A stretch of DNA of 64,000 bases from Escherichia phage mio, in sequence record MN850631.1; one strand, written 5' to 3'. Shown in pieces: positions 7,688 through 59,056 of this stretch. Each line of letters opens with the position of its first letter. Position 1 is the stretch's first letter. Both the position numbers and the translations under genes were made by a program. The notes below the pieces were generated by a model. It worked only from the letters and a program-made list of their open reading frames with translations, was not told where the DNA came from and made no database searches.

Positions 7688-9911
7688 AACCCTCGCAATA
7701 AGCGTCTTGCAGTGCAGATTTACCTACACCAATGCGACTGTTAAGGTAGTACATGGTTTTCATACCTACTGAGTTGGCATAAATCATGTACTTCAAAGCT
7801 TGAGCCAATGATACCTTCTTAGACTTTGCATAGTCAACATAGAAGTCTGAAGAGATAGCTTGACCAGTGAACTTTTGAACAATTGCATAGCAATCAATCA
7901 GGTCAAAGGTGTCAATATCCCAAGCAATTTCATAGACATACTTTAACTCTTCGTAATCTGGAACAATAAACAGTACGTTACCAGTTGCAGACTTTTTAGT
8001 TAAAATAAAGTCACGAATTGGGTACAAGCCATTTGTTGTATTGGTTGCCAGTGAAGAACTCTCATTAGGCATGTAGGCTTCTAATACAGAGTTACGGATT
8101 CCGCCATTCTCTTTGATACGTTGTGCTAAGTCATCCCAATCATAACGAAGTTTTGCATCATGCTTCTCATCAATCTTCCTGTTAGCTGTCTTCGGAGGAA
8201 CCCAACCTTCAGGATACTTAGTGAACTGCATATACTCAGGTACACCACGTTCTTTAGCAAGTCTTAAAGAGGCTTCGTGTAAGTAGTAAGAGTGCATTTC
8301 AGCAAGCTCATGAAGCTTAGTCTTACCTGCTCTTGAAGAGTAGTTCACGTAGTTTTTTGCAAGGTAATGAGCCACATTTGTAAGGCCAATCCCAACAGAA
8401 CGACGCTTCTGAACATGGTTACGCATCGACGGATACGGATAATCCATAAGGTCAATAACGGAGTCAACCATTGCAAGAGCATAATAAGCAACGTCAGCGT
8501 ATTCATCTTCTGAAATTCTCCCTGCAACCAAACTAGCTAGGAAGCAAAGAGCTACCTCACCATCCTCTTTTACAGCATCATCTCTGTAAAGGTCTGTTTC
8601 TTTCTCAAAGCCGTACACTGGCAACACAATTTCCATACAAAGGTTTGACATCTTCAAAGGTTCTTTAAATGGTGTATGTGTGTTTGCATTATTTGTGAAG
8701 AATGGATACACACGGCCTGTTGCATAACGCTGCTGGATAAACAGTTTAGCAATTTCACGAGCCTTTACTCGTCTGTGCTTAACACCTGAATGTACTGCAT
8801 GACCAACTGCCATAGCAAACTCATCAGCAGATGCTGTGTAGAACATGTCATAGAGCTTTGGTGCATCCTTGTAAGAGAATAACAACCAGTCTGTATCATA
8901 TTGAACACACTGCCAGAAGTAATCATTTGTACCAAATGAGTAGTCCATCTCGTTAATACGTTTCGAAGGAACCGTTGTAGGGTGCTTCAAACGCAGTAAA
9001 TCTTCAATCTGTGGGTCTAGAGCAGTGTAGAAGTTGTTAGCTGAACCACCACGACTCTTCTGTTTGTTTGCCTCTACAGATGAACGTACAAGCTTGTAAT
9101 AAGGTAGTTTACCCATGTGCTCAATAGTATTTTGACGGATACCATCACCGATAGTGCGAGTCTCCATCAGCATACCAATACCAGCTTGCTTTGTAGTCAT
9201 ATCATAAGCTACCTTTGCAGCAATACCAAGTGACTCAGCAGTATCATTCGCCTTAATCAAGCAGCATGACGCATAACCTGATTTAGTGGCTCTTAAACCA
9301 TTCAGATAAGGCGTAGGAGCGTTAATCTTCAGGTCAGATAGATAAGTGTACAGCTTGATAACATCTTGCAGTCTACGGTGCTTTGGTTGCTTCTCAAAGG
9401 CTTTCATAGCCATACCCATAAACATAAATTGTGGTGACTCAAAAAGTCTTCCAGTTTTAATATCACGGATACCATACTTGTCTCTGAACTGTTTCAATAC
9501 TGCATAGCCGTAAGAGATATCTTTTGAGTGTACGATGTAACCTTGCAGATATTCAAGCTCTTCCTGTGAATAGTCCATCTTCTCCCAAAGTCCCGCTCTC
9601 TCCATATTTTTAACGAAGGTAACCAGCGTAGGAACCTTAGTAAAGCCTCCAAAGGCTTCTTTGTAGATAATCCCTAGAAGTAGCCGTCCAGCCATAGCTG
9701 AGTGCTCTTGAGTTTGTTTATCAACACAAACATCAATCATGGCTTGGTGCATCTCTTTTGTAGTGCAACCCTCATAGACACGTTTCAAGGCTTCCATAGT
9801 GACTTCTGACCAGATAATACCATGCTTATCTGCCCATGATGCCCACTTATTCGGTCTTTCTGGGTCAAAGCTTACTACTGTACCGTTTGATTTTTTAATT
9901 GTCTTAATCAT
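7677..9911 (-). CDS. nrdA: ribonucleotide reductase large subunit (class I alpha)
   Basis: 744 aa; C-terminal redox-shuttle cysteines (...YCEGCGV) and RNR-alpha-like core. Confidence 0.85.
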   Translation of the reverse strand: MIKTIKKSNGTVVSFDPERPNKWASWADKHGIIWSEVTMEALKRVYEGCTTKEMHQAMIDVCVDKQTQEHSAMAGRLLLGIIYKEAFGGFTKVPTLVTFVKNMERAGLWEKMDYSQEELEYLQGYIVHSKDISYGYAVLKQFRDKYGIRDIKTGRLFESPQFMFMGMAMKAFEKQPKHRRLQDVIKLYTYLSDLKINAPTPYLNGLRATKSGYASCCLIKANDTAESLGIAAKVAYDMTTKQAGIGMLMETRTIGDGIRQNTIEHMGKLPYYKLVRSSVEANKQKSRGGSANNFYTALDPQIEDLLRLKHPTTVPSKRINEMDYSFGTNDYFWQCVQYDTDWLLFSYKDAPKLYDMFYTASADEFAMAVGHAVHSGVKHRRVKAREIAKLFIQQRYATGRVYPFFTNNANTHTPFKEPLKMSNLCMEIVLPVYGFEKETDLYRDDAVKEDGEVALCFLASLVAGRISEDEYADVAYYALAMVDSVIDLMDYPYPSMRNHVQKRRSVGIGLTNVAHYLAKNYVNYSSRAGKTKLHELAEMHSYYLHEASLRLAKERGVPEYMQFTKYPEGWVPPKTANRKIDEKHDAKLRYDWDDLAQRIKENGGIRNSVLEAYMPNESSSLATNTTNGLYPIRDFILTKKSATGNVLFIVPDYEELKYVYEIAWDIDTFDLIDCYAIVQKFTGQAISSDFYVDYAKSKKVSLAQALKYMIYANSVGMKTMYYLNSRIGVGKSALQDAYCEGCGV

Positions 9912-53251: not shown

Positions 53252-53282
53252 ATTTAAGGACTCTCGTAAGAACCCTTAGAAG

Positions 53283-54259: not shown

Positions 54260-54354
54260 GTGAAAGAGGTCTGAAGTTGTGCCGCTAACTCAACTCCGTG
54301 GAATTTGTTACGGTCTTCAGTTGACACAAGCGGTCTTTCACTTGACCTCTGAAT

Positions 54355-55703: not shown

Positions 55704-55785
55704 TGGTCGAGGCGGCAGGACTCGAACCCGCATACTCCACTTACTCGGTTAACGGCGGTTTAGAAGACCGCTGAGATACGCCCCG
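55704..55785 (-). tRNA. tRNA-Arg-like (anticodon-type loop CTTCTAA = UCU), structurally anomalous
   Basis: 82 nt; T-arm GCGGG-TTCGAGT-CCTGC and acceptor CGGGGCG/CGCCTCG, but the UCU hairpin sits where the D-arm should be, followed by 23 unassigned nt. Confidence 0.35.
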
Positions 55786-56078
55786 TAATTATCTTTAAAG
55801 ACTCTCTTAGAAAGCCCTTAAAGATGCCCACCTTATTAATCATACCGTGGGCTAGTACGCCAAATTCTTTGATGAGGGATTGGAAGACCTCACTGGTGTT
55901 TAGCCTATCAAGCTACTGCCAGAAAAACATTGTCGTTTGCATTTATTTTAAATTTGCAAAATAGACGCTACGCAACGAAAACTATTCAGAATATGTACAA
56001 CAAATTTCCCCACATTGTGTTACGTCTAACGCTCATGTATTGGTGTTTGAATTATACATATTATGAAGTATTTTAGTT

Positions 56079-56356: not shown

Positions 56357-56361
56357 ATTAA

Positions 56362-56504
56362 ATTATCTTTGTAGATAAGCTACCCAGACTTGCTTAAGGT
56401 CTGTAGCGATGTGCATTGTTGGGTTTAAATCTAGAATTTACCCTTTCACCCTTTGTGGTCGCATACTCACAGGTAAGCTTAATAACTTATCTACAAAGAT
56501 AATT
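56362..56504 (-). ncRNA. structured element with 19-bp perfect terminal inverted repeat (candidate ncRNA or mobile-element remnant)
   Basis: AATTATCTTTGTAGATAAG (56362-56380) and its exact reverse complement CTTATCTACAAAGATAATT (56486-56504) enclose about 105 nt with internal hairpins; no T-loop; strand unknown. Confidence 0.35.
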
Positions 56505-56505
56505 A

Positions 56506-56636
56506 CCAGACCGTTGTTTATCATCTTAAGTGCTACCATTACACCAACTCGACCTCTGCCGAGTGAAGGAATCGAACCTTCGCCTTTTCTTTACCGAGAA
56601 ATAGATTGTTTAAGCTTTGCTGTAAACGGTCTTCTG
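56506..56636 (-). ncRNA. circularly permuted tRNA-like element (candidate Y-RNA-like ncRNA or permuted tRNA gene)
   Basis: In minus-strand sense: variable-arm hairpin TTTCT-CGGTA-AGAAA, T-arm GAAGG-TTCGATT-CCTTC, acceptor-like hairpin ACTCGGC-AGAG-GTCGAGT, D-arm-like GTG-TAATGGTAG-CAC, then TTAAGAT pairing back to ATCT and an 8-bp outer helix AGACCGTT/AACGGTCT. Confidence 0.45.
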
Positions 56637-56810
56637 TAAATTTGTTGAGCCAGACCAAGTTTTAAATTTTTCAAAATTAAATTGGCTTGAAATTTTAAGT
56701 AACTTGCTGTATTTGGTCTTCTGCTCCTTTAAAGAATACTCGTAAGAACTCTTTAAGGGAGGGGCTAAATAGCCCTCTCAAAACATCATTTTGAAATACT
56801 TATTATAATT

Positions 56811-56888
56811 TGGCGGTTACGAAGGGACTCGAACCCTCATCATCTCCCGTGACAGGGGAGTATTTTAACCATATTAAACTACATAACC
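56811..56888 (-). tRNA. tRNA-Asp (anticodon GUC)
   Basis: 78 nt; anticodon stem CTCCC/GGGAG, loop CTGTCAC; T-loop GGGTTCGAGTCCC; CCA encoded. Confidence 0.65.
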
Positions 56889-56894
56889 TTCATT

Positions 56895-56982
56895 TGGTGT
56901 GCCGTGTAGGAGTCGAACCTACCGAGTCTCAATGACAAGGGATTTACAGTCCCCACCGCTACCATCTACGGGATAACGACAC
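56895..56982 (-). tRNA. tRNA-Tyr (anticodon GUA), type II
   Basis: 88 nt; anticodon loop CTGTAAA, long variable arm, T-arm GTAGG-TTCGACT-CCTAC; CCA encoded. Confidence 0.6.
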
Positions 56983-56991
56983 ATTTAAATT

Positions 56992-57068
56992 TGGCGGTTA
57001 GTCAGGGATTCGAACCCTGTGCCATTCGCTTAACAGGCGACCGCACATACCTTATGTGCTTCCTAACC
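56992..57068 (-). tRNA. tRNA-Asn (anticodon GUU)
   Basis: 77 nt; D-stem GCAC/GTGC, anticodon loop CTGTTAA, T-loop GGGTTCGAATCCC; CCA encoded. Confidence 0.65.
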
Positions 57069-57145
57069 TTAATACATTGCCAGACCGTGTTTTTTCTTTT
57101 ATCCGCAAAAAGTAGTTTGTTGCTGCATACAGTCTTCTGCAAAAT

Positions 57146-57222
57146 TGGAGGCGGGTGCAGGAGTCGAACCTGCCGATACCATGCTAATGAGACATGTGAG
57201 ACGCCCTTTCTCTATACCCGCA
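57146..57222 (-). tRNA. tRNA with CAU anticodon (Met or Ile2-type)
   Basis: 77 nt; anticodon stem CATGT/GCATG, loop CTCATTA; 1:72 mismatch in acceptor; T-arm GCAGG-TTCGACT-CCTGC. Confidence 0.5.
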
Positions 57223-57313
57223 ATTCTTAATGACCAGACCAAATCTCTTCTTTGTCCGATTTACCTTCAGATGAATAAGATTAAGTTTGCTGTAATTGGT
57301 CTTCTGTCAAAAC

Positions 57314-57391
57314 TGGCGTTCCAGAAGGGATTTGAACCCTCAGATATCCACTTTGAAAGAGTGGTGACTTTACCATTTTGTCTACTGGAAC
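57314..57391 (-). tRNA. tRNA-Glu (anticodon UUC)
   Basis: 78 nt; anticodon stem CCACT/AGTGG, loop CTTTCAA; T-loop GGGTTCAAATCCC; CCA encoded. Confidence 0.65.
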
Positions 57392-57398
57392 ATTAATT

Positions 57399-57476
57399 TG
57401 GTCTCTGTTGGAGGACTTGAACCTCCGGCCTTACCGCCCCAAACGGAACGCTCTACCAAGCTGAGCTAAACAGAGA
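57399..57476 (-). tRNA. tRNA-Pro (anticodon UGG)
   Basis: About 78 nt; canonical D-arm AGCTCAGCTTGGTAGAGC, anticodon loop TTTGGGG, T-arm GGAGG-TTCAAGT-CCTCC; CCA encoded. Confidence 0.7.
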
Positions 57477-57593
57477 TAAACTTTTCAAACTCTATGTAAC
57501 CACTTTAACATTATTTTTTAGTGATTGTCAAGAACTTTTTTAAAATATTTTTCAGTATCTTAGAAAAGCTCTCATTTCGTTTCTATGTAGAAC

Positions 57594-57622
57594 ATATTAA
57601 AGGGTATTAAACACATTGTCAA
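57594..57622 (-). promoter_or_regulatory. sigma70-like promoter at the head of the tRNA array
   Basis: Minus-strand TTGACA (rc of 57617-57622), 17-nt spacer, TAATAT (rc of 57594-57599); overlaps a 7-bp hairpin GGGTATT/AATACCC just downstream of the Rsr-like gene stop. Confidence 0.5.
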
Positions 57623-57640: not shown

Positions 57641-59056
57641 TTACCAGATATAACGGTCAATCATTACTGCTTTGAGCATTACGCTGATTGGGTCAAACTT
57701 CTCACCACCAAGCAGAGCTTTTAAAGTGGCTGGAGAGAAACCAGATACCATTGCTACACCGTTATCCTTAACAGACACTTCGCAAGTCCCATTACGGTTT
57801 GCTAAGTACCAGAATACCAGTTGTGGCATCTCATATCCAGATTTTTTGTACTTACTCTGAATTGCTTCAAAGTTTGTACGACCATTAGCTCCATCAACCT
57901 GATTGAACTCCATATCAGAGAAGATGATAAGCTTACTTGGCATATCTTTCTGAGTCAAGTTGTTTCTTTTACCTACCTCAAGAATGCGGTCAAAAGCTGC
58001 TTGTAAGTTAGTTGAGCCATATTCAACGTGTCGCATCACCTGACGATGACGGTTTTGTAAATCACCACTCAGTTCGATGAAGTGAGGGTTTGTTGAATAA
58101 ACCATTAACTCGTTCTTAAAGCAACCTGTATTGCGTTCTGCTACATACAATGCAAGTGATACACCAATATCAAGAGCAGTAATTGAACCAAAATTCACCC
58201 AAGACATTGAGCTTGAGACATCAGTCATACACAAGATGTTTTCACCCTCTGCCATCCAGTTTGGTAGTGCTTTCCACTGCTCATTAGCAACATCTGCATT
58301 ACCATGCTTAACAGATTTAATCACATCGTATGGGTAAACAGCACCAGCGTTAATCTTAGACTCACCCTTTGAGAGTGATTCGATGTAAGCTTTGTAACGT
58401 TCTCCATCTTTACGGTTAAAGAGCTTTTGGTAACGTGCAGCAGCGAGTGAAGGAATCTTGCTGTAGTCAATCTTACCAAACTCATTAGCAGAGATTTTTT
58501 GCTCAACCGTATCAGACAGTGCAGATAACAGTGTGCGGTACTCTTTCTCGCTTAAGTTTGCAAACTTACAGAAACGTTTTACAAACTGTTTGTGGCGTGG
58601 TTTTACTCGTGGCAGCCACTTAGCTGCTAAACCTGCTGTTGCAGGGTCTAGCAATGCTGCTTCTAAATGCTTGAAGGCATCTGTCTCAAAACGAGTACCT
58701 ACGAAGATTTTGAAGTCATCAAAACGACCAAGTTCTGCAATCTTATCCATAATGCGAAGAACCTGTGTAGGCTCTAAAACTTTATCTTCAATTGCTTGAA
58801 GCAAGACAGTTCTGAAGGCTTTACGCTCACCCATACCTTCTCGTACATCTCGCATATGCAGTAAAATACGAACTGCGACATCAACATCCTCACGCAAAGC
58901 TTTGTAGAACAGGTCTGGTAAGATTTCTACATTGCTACGGCTTGAACCAGCAGCTTTGTAAAAGTCTACAAGAGCAGACATTGATGAAGTATGGTTTACA
59001 GCACCATTTTCAGTTCGACCTGCATGAAGGTGCGCATGTTTAAATAATTCGCTCAT
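57641..59056 (-). CDS. Ro60/Rsr-like protein (TROVE-like N-terminal region + von Willebrand factor A domain)
   Basis: 471 aa; C-terminal vWA with MIDAS-type CMTDVSSSMSW plus IIFSDMEF, SKYKKS and GFSPATLKAL, which parallel segments I recall from the Ro60 vWA domain (DVSASM, IVFTDNE, REYRKK, GFDTGALDV); N-terminal 260 aa helical; memory-based comparison only. Confidence 0.5.
   Translation of the reverse strand: MSELFKHAHLHAGRTENGAVNHTSSMSALVDFYKAAGSSRSNVEILPDLFYKALREDVDVAVRILLHMRDVREGMGERKAFRTVLLQAIEDKVLEPTQVLRIMDKIAELGRFDDFKIFVGTRFETDAFKHLEAALLDPATAGLAAKWLPRVKPRHKQFVKRFCKFANLSEKEYRTLLSALSDTVEQKISANEFGKIDYSKIPSLAAARYQKLFNRKDGERYKAYIESLSKGESKINAGAVYPYDVIKSVKHGNADVANEQWKALPNWMAEGENILCMTDVSSSMSWVNFGSITALDIGVSLALYVAERNTGCFKNELMVYSTNPHFIELSGDLQNRHRQVMRHVEYGSTNLQAAFDRILEVGKRNNLTQKDMPSKLIIFSDMEFNQVDGANGRTNFEAIQSKYKKSGYEMPQLVFWYLANRNGTCEVSVKDNGVAMVSGFSPATLKALLGGEKFDPISVMLKAVMIDRYIW

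What the first reader, a model, noticed from the sequence alone, without database searches (positions are those of the whole stretch)
56503..57313. Recurrent GGTCTTCTG box and partner CAGACC(A/G) half-sites in the spacers between tRNAs
Plus-strand spacers repeatedly carry ...TTGCTGTA(N3-4)GGTCTTCTG... (56624-56635, 56711-56722, 57129-57138, 57296-57306; variant at 54312-54321) and an upstream partly complementary CAGACC(A/G) segment (56506-56515, 56650-56657, 57234-57241, 57078-57086), so each spacer can fold into a hairpin closing at the same box. The box also occurs inverted inside the Arg-like tRNA. This looks like a conserved processing or recognition signal rather than chance.
Basis: seen in the sequence. 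Interest (0 to 1): 0.5.

Follow-up and report, generated by a model that had tools for sequence, protein, structure and literature searches.

The report
Phage Y-RNA-like genes between tRNAs
The repeated "boxes" between the tRNA genes of this Felix O1-like phage are the two halves of the closing stem of four small non-coding RNA genes that resemble bacterial Y RNAs. They most likely bind the Ro60-like protein encoded just upstream, which gives that counter-defence protein candidate RNA partners.

Summary
All tRNAs are on the minus strand, where the boxes read 5'-CAGAAGAC(C/U)NNN-U(A/G)CAGCAA ... GGUCUGG-3'. Four such units occur, against 0.2 expected. Each has a 4-bp outer stem, an AGA/G internal loop, a 7-8-bp inner stem and a CAGCAA box. 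Both stems covary.

Unit A (56503-56639) also holds a tRNA-like module in the order V hairpin, T arm, capped acceptor stem, D arm. This is the architecture of bacterial YrlA Y RNAs.

The gene just upstream on the same strand (57641-59056) is annotated only as DUF2828/DUF7788. Its predicted fold matches Ro60 over its full length. It is the ortholog of Bas63 gp130.

Covariance models find the same RNA beside DUF2828 genes in 44 of 75 distant phage contigs. Every hit is on the gene strand, most are within 500 nt of the gene, and many have no tRNA nearby. A model built only from distant loci hits unit A at E=6e-11.

So the boxes are probably the protein-binding helix of phage Y-like RNAs, not tRNA-processing signals. 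Binding and expression are inferred, not shown. I rate it a new variant of a known kind.

The parts
57231..57309 (-). Unit D, a short Y-like RNA (79 nt) between tRNA-Glu and tRNA-Met. Layout: UGAC-AGA-AGACCAA-UUACAGCAA...UUGGUCU-G-GUCA.
   Evidence: Same basal fold as the other units in the minimum-free-energy structure. R1 covariance-model hit at 59.4 bits, E=1.3e-9. Coordinates checked.
57077..57142 (-). Unit C, a short Y-like RNA (66 nt) between tRNA-Met and tRNA-Asn. Layout: UUGC-AGA-AGACUGU-AUGCAGCAA...ACGGUCU-G-GCAA, with a U-G wobble in the inner stem.
   Evidence: R1 hit at 61.8 bits, E=3.6e-10.
56647..56726 (-). Unit B, a short Y-like RNA (80 nt) in the long tRNA-Asp to tRNA-Lys spacer. 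Layout: GAGC-AGA-AGACCAA-AUACAGCAA...UUGGUCU-G-GCUC.
   Evidence: R1 hit at 65.4 bits, E=5.7e-11.
56503..56639 (-). Unit A, a YrlA-like RNA (137 nt). It has the same basal stem and CAGCAA box, enclosing a V hairpin, T arm, capped acceptor-like stem and D arm.
   Evidence: Fold. RNAalifold on 9 relatives. R2, a model built only from distant phage loci, hits 56501-56641 at 58.3 bits, E=6.3e-11, over the full model length.
56565..56581 (-). T-arm mimic of unit A, GAAGG-UUCGAUU-CCUUC.
   Evidence: Partial Rfam tRNA match at 56565-56585. Invariant in relatives.
56547..56564 (-). Capped acceptor-stem mimic ('AS') of unit A, ACUCGGC-AGAG-GUCGAGU.
   Evidence: The sequence differs completely among relatives but the pairing is kept: ACACGU/GCGUGU in SUSP1 and Sf13, ACCCUUC/GAAGGGU in Moogle and Mordin. 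Three pairs show compensatory changes on both sides.
56529..56545 (-). D-arm mimic of unit A, GGUGU-AAUGGUA-GCACU. The loop contains a GG.
56586..56601 (-). V (variable-arm-like) hairpin of unit A, UUUCU-CGGUAA-AGAAA.
   Evidence: By my reading of the Moogle sequence, it can form UUUCA-GGGUA-UGAGA at this position; the RNAalifold alignment does not align or pair it that way.
57641..59056 (-). 471-aa Ro60-like protein gene (DUF2828 + DUF7788/vWA). It is the proposed protein partner and the ortholog of Bas63 gp130.
   Evidence: Pfam. PHROG 850 'RNA-binding protein'. AlphaFold2 model with pLDDT 88. The top 12 Foldseek PDB hits are all Ro60/TROVE, E about 1e-8, TM 0.45-0.66. The same gene sits at the same place in Bas63.
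57502..57622 (-). Two sigma-70-like promoters (TTGACA-17-TAATAT and TTGACA-18-TAAAGT) between the Ro60-like gene and tRNA-Pro. They would drive the tRNA/Y-like RNA array.
   Evidence: Consensus scan only; the number of promoter-like sites in the region is not above the shuffle expectation. Sequence.
56811..57475 (-). The tRNA genes that flank units C and D: Pro, Glu, Met, Asn, Tyr, Asp. Their maturation would free the units as discrete RNAs. Units start 3-4 nt after one tRNA and end about 8 nt before the next.
   Evidence: tRNA calls. Spacer sequences. The release step is inferred.

Best explanation
The boxes are the 5' strand (CAGAAGACC, read on the minus strand) and the 3' strand (GGUCUGG) of the basal helix of four small non-coding RNA genes interleaved with the phage's tRNA genes.

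Each RNA has paired 5' and 3' ends that form a 4-bp outer stem, an asymmetric internal loop (AGA opposite a single G) and a 7-8-bp inner stem. A single-stranded UNCAGCAA box follows the inner stem. Three units (B, C, D) carry only a small hairpin inside. Unit A carries a tRNA-like module (V hairpin, T arm, capped acceptor stem, D arm), as bacterial YrlA Y RNAs do.

I propose the following:
- The units are transcribed with the tRNAs from the promoters just downstream of the Ro60-like gene.
- They are released when RNase P and the 3'-end tRNA maturation enzymes cut out the neighbouring tRNAs.
- They are bound through the bulged helix and CAGCAA box by the phage's Ro60-like protein. The resulting Ro60/Y-RNA-type particle would then gate the protein's ring or tether it to a host effector such as an exoribonuclease, or mimic tRNA.

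Shown here: the elements exist, have a conserved and covarying structure, and are genomically coupled to the Ro60-like gene across very distant phages.

Inferred: transcription, processing, binding and downstream function.
For: 1. The motif is non-random and strand-specific.
2. All four units share the same basal fold. On 25 diverse units, 91% of cells are paired against 62% in shuffles, 10 of 11 pairs change on both sides, and the covariation score is 0.756 against 0.229, reached by 0 of 500 shuffles. Register-slid controls give 23-48% paired.
3. Unit A has the order V, T arm, capped acceptor, D arm. Its acceptor stem keeps pairing through complete sequence turnover. This is how Chen et al. 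2014 describe YrlA (PMC4201824).
4. The adjacent gene has a Ro60 fold. The best 12 PDB matches are all Ro60/TROVE, and the only two profile hits in the PDB are Ro60. The residues of the metal-binding site (MIDAS, DxSxS) of the vWA domain are invariant.
5. Model R1 (short units) gives 64 hits at E<=0.1 in 1.33 Mb searched on both strands. All 64 are on the strand of the DUF2828 gene, and 39 of them are not seed sequences.
6. Model R2, built only from distant loci, finds unit A at E=6e-11. tRNA-junction background scores are at most 35 bits.
7. Of 75 loci with a protein only 39-48% identical, 44 carry a hit. The nearest hit is within 500 nt of the gene in 28 of those 44.
8. Several distant members are matched by Rfam YrlA with significant scores that fall below Rfam's curated cut-off: 38.9, 38.0, 36.7 and 34.8 bits, E from 5e-5 to 7e-4.
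9. Precedent: the Thermus phage phiLo Ro60 binds two phage-encoded stem-bulge-stem Y-like RNAs encoded next to its gene (PMC12135203).
10. The PhageMaP preprint reports that Bas63 gp130 is Ro60-like in structure and counters the ppl defence. It guessed that Y RNAs hide among the tRNA genes (PMC11482910).
Against: - There is no expression, end-mapping or binding data.
- Rfam YrlA does not match unit A even at E<=10.
- The 5' motif is CAGAAG, not the published GNCGAA(N)G. The CAGCAA box has no counterpart in described Y RNAs.
- The protein does not match Pfam TROVE. Sequence-level similarity to Ro60 is not significant (E=0.4), so the Ro60 relationship rests on fold.
- The distant seed sequences for R1 were picked with a descriptor that required pairing, so their pair counts are partly circular. 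The strand bias, the shuffle controls and the non-seed hits are not.
- 31 of 75 distant loci had no model hit.
Confidence: 0.75

Rival explanations
1. tRNA-processing or punctuation signals. The hairpins would be cleavage or recognition sites, for example for RNase III or RNase E, that help separate tRNAs in the polycistronic precursor. They would have no function of their own.
For: In this window all four units lie between tRNA genes. In distant phages 25 of 58 hits lie within 300 nt of a tRNA.
Against: Most tRNAs in the same cluster are separated by only 1-9 nt and need no such element. In 12 distant loci with hits there is no tRNA in the whole fetched stretch, and 22 of 58 hits have no tRNA within 2 kb. 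The element tracks the DUF2828 gene instead. A processing hairpin does not explain a conserved tRNA-like module or the invariant single-stranded CAGCAA box.
Confidence: 0.06
2. Real structured RNAs linked to the locus, but not ligands of the Ro60-like protein. Examples would be regulatory small RNAs, tRNA-mimic decoys for host tRNA-targeting nucleases, or ligands of another conserved neighbour such as the DUF5681 protein upstream.
For: Structure and conservation are shown, but binding is not. The tRNA-like domain could serve as a decoy on its own. The basal motif differs from published Ro60-binding motifs.
Against: Co-location with the DUF2828 gene itself persists down to 39% protein identity and across changing gene neighbourhoods. 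The Ro60 fold plus a YrlA-type RNA next door is the known partner arrangement. In some phages a mini version sits in the gene's own 5' leader, as expected for a ligand of that protein.
Confidence: 0.14
3. Decaying tRNA pseudogenes or a small mobile repeat (MITE-like or homing-endonuclease-associated) that has spread in the tRNA cluster and has no RNA function.
For: There are multiple copies per genome with inverted-repeat-like ends. HNH endonuclease genes are present in the cluster. Unit A contains tRNA-derived arms.
Against: All 64 model hits are on the gene strand. Substitutions are compensatory in both stems. The units keep their positions relative to flanking genes across Felixounavirus, Suspvirus and Mooglevirus. 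The single-stranded box is invariant (C, G and C in 64 of 64 hits). I saw no target-site duplications at the unit ends (read).
Confidence: 0.03

Closest known systems
YrlA / YrlB, the bacterial Y RNAs encoded next to Ro60 (Rsr), e.g. in Salmonella and mycobacteriophages (Chen et al. 2014, PMC4201824; Rfam RF02553)
   Same: They are encoded beside a Ro60-type gene. The 5' and 3' ends pair into a bulged stem with a purine-rich GAA-type motif on the 5' strand. YrlA has a V hairpin, T arm, capped acceptor stem and D arm in that order, and the acceptor stem is conserved in pairing but not in sequence. A shorter partner RNA (YrlB) lacks the tRNA-like module. Distant relatives of the window's units get significant Rfam YrlA scores.
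   Different: The window's unit A gets no Rfam YrlA hit, and relatives stay far below the curated cut-off of 69 bits. The motif is C-AGA-AG rather than GNCGAA(N)G. The invariant UNCAGCAA box is not part of YrlA. The partner protein is a DUF2828/DUF7788 protein that Pfam does not recognise as TROVE. There are four RNAs, scattered inside a tRNA array rather than placed in an rsr operon.
Thermus phage phiLo Ro60 with its phage-encoded Yrl1 and Yrl2 RNAs (PMC12135203; PDB 9KOP, 9L5Y)
   Same: A phage-encoded Ro60-like ring protein with several stem-bulge-stem Y-like RNAs encoded next to it. The phiLo protein is among the top structural matches of the window's protein. The authors propose that it recruits host PNPase as an anti-defence strategy.
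   Different: phiLo's protein was identified as a Ro60 homolog by database search, and its RNAs carry the CGAA motif. No tRNA array is involved. Sequence identity to the window's protein is about 15%.
Bas63 (Escherichia phage JohannRWettstein) gp130 in the PhageMaP preprint (PMC11482910)
   Same: It is the same gene at the same position (bas63_0130). The preprint reports it as structurally Ro60-like and as a counter to the ppl defence system. The authors suggested that Y RNAs might exist in the adjacent tRNA region.
   Different: They proposed that some annotated tRNA genes might be the Y RNAs and identified no RNA. Here the candidates are the unannotated inter-tRNA spacers, not the tRNAs.
Deinococcus radiodurans Yrn1
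   Same: A Ro60-bound RNA with a T-arm mimic and partial tRNA likeness. One distant family member (L039 9726-9838) has the alternative arrangement D arm, anticodon-like arm, T arm enclosed by the basal stem. This recalls the different orientation reported for Yrn1.
   Different: No sequence relationship was shown, and the module order differs from that of the window's unit A.
Stable 'species 1 and 2' RNAs in the phage T4 tRNA gene cluster (recalled from memory, not tested)
   Same: Small stable RNAs of unknown function that are co-transcribed and co-processed with phage tRNAs.
   Different: As far as I know T4 has no Ro60-like gene. No sequence or structure comparison was made here.

Membership tests
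Y RNA (functional class: small RNA partner of a Ro60 protein) | Encoded next to, or co-occurring with, a Ro60-type protein gene | tested here: met
   The units lie 330-1140 nt downstream of a gene with a Ro60 fold, on the same strand. The same coupling holds in 44 of 75 distant loci, with the nearest hit within 500 nt of the gene in 28 of them.
Y RNA (functional class: small RNA partner of a Ro60 protein) | About 80-130 nt, with 5' and 3' ends paired into a long stem that carries a conserved bulge, plus an internal loop or module | tested here: met
   The units are 66-137 nt. All have an outer stem, an AGA/G loop and an inner stem.
Y RNA (functional class: small RNA partner of a Ro60 protein) | Physically bound by the Ro60 protein | not testable with these tools
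   This needs immunoprecipitation or gel-shift assays with the 471-aa protein.
YrlA (Rfam RF02553) | Scores at or above the Rfam curated cut-off (69 bits) | tested here: not met
   No YrlA hit on the window at E<=10 or E<=1. Distant family members score 28.7-38.9 bits.
YrlA (Rfam RF02553) | tRNA-like module in the order V hairpin, T arm, capped acceptor stem, D arm, with the acceptor stem conserved only in pairing | tested here: met
   Met for unit A (definition). Units B, C and D lack the module and resemble the shorter YrlB type.
YrlA (Rfam RF02553) | GNCGAA(N0-1)G motif near the 5' end | tested here: not met
   The window has C-AGA-AGAC. The family consensus is A-A-G with G invariant. Only the Vibrio phage phi-pp2 member reads CCGAAG.
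YrlA (Rfam RF02553) | Carries tRNA-type modifications and is a substrate of tRNA enzymes (TruB, DusA, RNase P) | not testable with these tools
   Biochemical.
Ro60 / TROVE protein (the proposed partner) | Matches Pfam TROVE or shows significant sequence similarity to Ro60 | tested here: not met
   Pfam gives only DUF2828 and DUF7788. The single-sequence search gave no Ro60 match. The profile search's only two PDB hits are Ro60, but at E=0.42 and 0.77.
Ro60 / TROVE protein (the proposed partner) | Helical-repeat ring followed by a von Willebrand A domain with a MIDAS motif | tested here: met
   Model pLDDT 88, pTM 0.88. Full-length Foldseek matches to Xenopus, human, Deinococcus and phiLo Ro60. 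D279, S281, S283, T349 and D381 are invariant in 37 homologs.
tRNA spacer processing signal | Occurs only in association with tRNA genes | tested here: not met
   12 loci with hits have no tRNA in the stretch, and 22 of 58 hits are more than 2 kb from any tRNA.
Circularly permuted tRNA gene (red-alga type) | A complete tRNA, including an anticodon arm, once the ends are joined; a bulge-helix-bulge splice motif at the junction | tested here: not met
   Unit A has no anticodon arm. The basal stem takes its place and has a 3x1 internal loop, not a bulge-helix-bulge (and the sequence).

The most novel reading that the evidence does not exclude
DUF2828/DUF7788 proteins are a very large, unrecognised branch of Ro60 in phages. 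The search found more than 2000 cluster representatives and more than 594 IMG/VR loci. This branch has its own class of Y RNAs, defined by an AAG-bulged helix and a UNCAGCAA box.

In tRNA-rich phages these RNAs are embedded in the tRNA array, so that host tRNA-maturation enzymes produce them. The resulting particle would be the active form of a counter-defence factor (Bas63 gp130 against ppl), with the tRNA-mimic unit acting as tether or decoy. Mini-copies of the RNA in the gene's own 5' leader, ending at the ribosome-binding site, would give autoregulation by molecular mimicry.
Probability: 0.45. Interest if true: 0.75.

Novelty: new variant of a known kind. Interest (0 to 1): 0.6.

Why it matters
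- **Scope of Ro60/Y RNA in phages.** Ro60/Y-RNA particles are known from animals, some bacteria and a few phages, and their function in microbes is still poorly understood. Here a common, well-studied phage group (Felix O1-like, about 250 sequenced genomes with these units) and many unrelated environmental phages turn out to carry a Ro60-fold protein hidden behind DUF names.
- **A new RNA family.** A matching family of Y-like RNAs accompanies this protein. These RNAs are absent from Rfam and from the GenBank records examined.
- **A testable system.** The Bas63 ortholog already has a genetic phenotype: it counters the ppl defence. Naming the candidate RNA partners, with exact coordinates and a defined motif, makes the mechanism directly testable in a tractable E. 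coli phage.
- **Annotation.** Long 'spacers' in phage tRNA arrays can be genes in their own right.

Tried and rejected
1. **Permuted tRNA gene with a bulge-helix-bulge splice site.** Unit A's T arm, capped acceptor and D arm first suggested this. I rejected it because there is no anticodon arm and the loop is 3x1, not a bulge-helix-bulge.
2. **Kink-turn.** The AGA bulge is not followed by tandem G-A pairs (read from the sequence).
3. **Promoter or MotA-box reading.** TTGACA and TTTACA overlap the 5' box in units D and A, but there is no usable -10 element and no conservation of the hexamer in units B and C.
4. **Direct Rfam identification.** No family matched the four units. The weak Dictyostelium Class I RNA hits (E 0.75-9.7) are simple stem matches.
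5. **Existing annotation.** The 'tRNA pseudogene' and 'tRNA-OTHER' features in related records are the tRNA-Tyr gene, not the units. The units are unannotated, or covered by spurious small ORFs.
6. **Extra spacer in relatives.** The 69-nt Tyr-to-Asn spacer in Felix O1 and Bas63 is not a fifth unit.
7. **Unit in the window gene's own leader.** None is present.
8. **Loose descriptor.** A loose structural descriptor was too noisy, about 7 hits per shuffled window. I replaced it with a stricter one, which gave 62 hits on the gene strand, 10 on the opposite strand and 1-2 in shuffles, and then with covariance models.
9. **Literature.** Searches for DUF2828 in phages, Felix O1 transcriptomes and TROVE/vWA phage papers found nothing describing these RNAs. 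The held library does not cover subscription journals.
10. **Defence-system models.** PADLOC models do not match the protein.
Full report
**What the window is.** The region is 98% identical to Felix O1-like phages (Felixounavirus, Ounavirinae). ARAGORN finds 24 tRNA genes between 52169 and 57475, all on the minus strand. The finding therefore has to be read as its reverse complement. Most tRNA-tRNA spacers here are only 1-9 nt long.

**Checking the observation.** The 9-mer alone is barely enriched. The composite AGAAGACYNNNTRCAGCAA occurs four times against 0.21 expected. The paired pattern CAGAAGAC...GGTCTGG occurs three times against 0.00 expected. All copies are on the minus strand within the tRNA cluster.

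On the minus strand each unit reads: outer stem (UGAC/GUCA, UUGC/GCAA, GAGC/GCUC, UUAC/GUAA), then AGA, then inner stem AGAC(C/U)NN(N), then U(A/G)CAGCAA, then a variable interior, then NN(N)GGUCU, then G, then the outer stem. Minimum-free-energy folds of all four close in exactly this way. The 'variant' at 54312 and the box 'inside the Arg-like tRNA' are not members.

**Unit A contains a tRNA mimic.** Inside the basal stem, unit A (56503-56639) has four modules:
- a small hairpin;
- a perfect T arm, GAAGG-UUCGAUU-CCUUC;
- a 7-bp stem capped by a tetraloop, ACUCGGC-AGAG-GUCGAGU;
- a D arm with a GG in its loop.

In relatives the T and D arms are unchanged, but the capped stem is entirely different in sequence and still pairs: ACACGU/GCGUGU in SUSP1 and Sf13, ACCCUUC/GAAGGGU in Moogle and Mordin. 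This matches the description of bacterial YrlA Y RNAs. That description is a Ro60-binding stem formed by the two ends, then V, T, an acceptor-like stem-loop 'not conserved in primary sequence', then D (Chen et al. 2014, PMC4201824).

**The neighbouring gene.** Immediately upstream on the same strand lies a 471-aa ORF (57641-59056).
- Pfam sees only DUF2828 and DUF7788. PHROGs calls its family 'RNA-binding protein'.
- An AlphaFold2 model built from 37 homologs is confident (pLDDT 88, pTM 0.88).
- Its 12 best PDB matches are all full-length Ro60/TROVE structures: Xenopus, human, Deinococcus Rsr and Thermus phage phiLo (E about 1e-8, TM 0.45-0.66). After those come only isolated vWA domains.
- The metal-binding-site (MIDAS) residues of the vWA domain are invariant in the family.
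- Sequence-level similarity to Ro60 is not significant, although Ro60 gives the only two profile hits in the PDB.
- The gene is the positional ortholog of bas63_0130. [quoted passage not shown]

**Does the RNA follow the protein?** I fetched loci around homologs of the protein: other Ounavirinae, a Yersinia phage and an unnamed contig with 53-63% identical proteins, Vibrio phage phi-pp2 and 80 IMG/VR contigs, 75 of which have a protein only 39-48% identical.

- The Yersinia phage has units with a changed but still paired helix: UGC-ACA-GGACUGU UUACAGCAA ... ACAGUCC-A-GCA.
- phi-pp2 has a YrlA-like unit whose bulge reads CCGAAG, the canonical bacterial motif, followed by UUCAGCAA.
- A strict structural descriptor gave 62 hits on the gene strand, 10 on the opposite strand and 1-2 per strand in shuffles.
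- Model R1, built from 25 short units, found 64 matches at E<=0.1 in 1.33 Mb searched on both strands. All 64 lie on the strand of the DUF2828 gene, and 39 are not seed sequences. In the window it hits only units B, C and D.
- Model R2, built only from 14 long forms from distant loci with no Felix O1-group (Felixounavirus, Suspvirus, Mooglevirus) sequence, hits the window's unit A over its full length at 58.3 bits, E=6.3e-11. It hits the orthologous units of Felix O1, Moogle, SUSP1 and Sf13 at 55-61 bits. Junctions between adjacent tRNAs score at most 35 bits.
- Across the 75 distant loci, 44 have a hit. In 28 of these the nearest hit is within 500 nt of the gene.
- Of the 58 hits checked, 22 have no tRNA within 2 kb, and 12 loci have no tRNA at all.

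The element therefore belongs with the protein, not with tRNAs.

**Link to known Y RNAs.** Rfam's YrlA model (RF02553) does not match the window. It does match several distant family members with significant scores that fall below the curated cut-off:
- L077 at 38.9 and 28.7 bits;
- L079 at 36.7 bits;
- L031 at 38.0 and 34.8 bits.

The alignment shows that the match comes from the T, acceptor and D modules, not from the basal stem.

The family consensus from the 64 R1 hits is as follows. On the 5' strand, A (57/64), A (58/64), G (64/64). In the box, U (62/64), N, then C (64), A (60), G (64), C (64), A (63), A (62). On the 3' strand, C (61/64), U (54/64), G (61/64). The bulged helix with a GAA-type motif parallels the Ro60-binding helix of Y RNAs. 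The CAGCAA box is specific to this family.

**Structural support.** On the 25 short units, 91% of cells pair against 62% in shuffles. Ten of 11 pairs show changes on both sides, and register-slid controls fall to 23-48%. On the 14 long forms, the basal stem, T arm and D arm give 91% pairing and a covariation score of 0.80 against 0.24.

One caveat applies. The distant seed sequences were chosen with a descriptor that required pairing of the basal stem, so those pair counts are partly circular. The strand bias, the non-seed hits and the cross-family R2 hit are not.

**Proposed mechanism.** Two TTGACA promoters lie between the Ro60-like gene and the first tRNA. The units start 3-4 nt after one tRNA and end about 8 nt before the next, so normal tRNA maturation would release them with paired ends. 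This step is inferred.

I propose that the Ro60-like protein binds the bulged helix and CAGCAA box. This follows the example of Xenopus Ro60 with Y RNA, bacterial Rsr with YrlA, and phiLo Ro60 with Yrl1 and Yrl2. The last of these also assembles with host PNPase (PMC12135203). Binding, the role of the tRNA-like domain and the connection to the ppl phenotype are all untested.

**Novelty.** No paper in the searchable library describes these RNAs. The GenBank records examined leave them unannotated. The concept of a Ro60 gene with adjacent Y RNAs, including in phages, is known, and a preprint anticipated Y RNAs in this region. What is new is the identification of the actual elements, their distinct motif, their placement inside a tRNA array, and their coupling to a large DUF-annotated protein family. 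I therefore class it as a new variant of a known kind.

Noticed in passing
window 56357-56500 (-), between unit A and tRNA-Lys(UUU): A roughly 140-nt element closed by a 20-bp stem with three inner hairpins. It is very stable (-42.9 kcal/mol, z = -4.9, 0 of 200 shuffles fold as well). The homolog in L008 (9750-9895) has compensatory changes: CAGAC...GUCUG becomes CAGUC...GACUG, and the long stem is also altered. No Rfam match and no R1 or R2 hit. It is probably another unannotated structured RNA.
   Followed up: partly
window 55704-55785 (-): A tRNA-Arg(UCU)-like gene with an encoded CCA, a 7-bp acceptor stem, an anticodon arm, an extra variable hairpin and a T arm. It has no D arm: only 7 nt lie between the acceptor and anticodon stems. 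ARAGORN does not call it, and Rfam gives only a weak tmRNA-end match. Relatives have a normal, unrelated-looking tRNA-Arg(UCU) at this slot (fold). An HNH endonuclease ORF follows directly.
   Followed up: partly
L019 1757-1800 and L030 9943-9990; also L009 about 7960-8000: In some distant phages a miniature copy of the element (44-48 nt, UAA-AGAAUU...CAGCAA...AAUUCU-G) sits in the 5' leader of the DUF2828 gene itself. Its 3' end runs into GGAGG/GAAGG, 6-10 nt before the start codon. This suggests translational autoregulation by mimicry of the partner RNA. The window's own gene has no such leader element.
   Followed up: partly
It is a stable 95-nt hairpin (-29.3 kcal/mol, z = -2.7) containing CAAC-UGA-AGACCGU...ACGG-A-GUUG. 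That loosely echoes the outer stem, bulge and inner stem layout but lacks CAGCAA, and neither model matches it. A spacer of similar length (94-99 nt) lies at this position in relatives. Its function is unknown.
   Followed up: partly
L007 11901-11982 and L008 9972-10049: A different conserved spacer element of about 80 nt, containing CUGCGCGGCUGGAAACACCCACUCAA, lies between tRNAs in two Felix O1-related phages. It is absent from the window, where the Lys to Met spacer is 4 nt.
   Followed up: no
window 53252-53282, 55786-55830 and 56727-56790 (-): Short hairpins of the type CUUUAAAG/AAGGGUUCUUACGAGAGUCCUU recur in several other spacers of the tRNA cluster. They form a second repeat family, not analysed.
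   Followed up: no
L039 9726-9838: One family member encloses a non-permuted partial tRNA (D arm, anticodon-like arm, T arm) within the same basal stem and CAGCAA box. The basal stem therefore replaces the acceptor stem rather than the anticodon stem. This suggests that these RNAs captured tRNA modules more than once.
   Followed up: no
L087 13297-13441; L031 8605-9054: Other non-coding RNAs occur in the distant DUF2828 phage contigs: a Polynucleobacter-1 RNA match (83 bits) and a tmRNA (75 bits).
   Followed up: no
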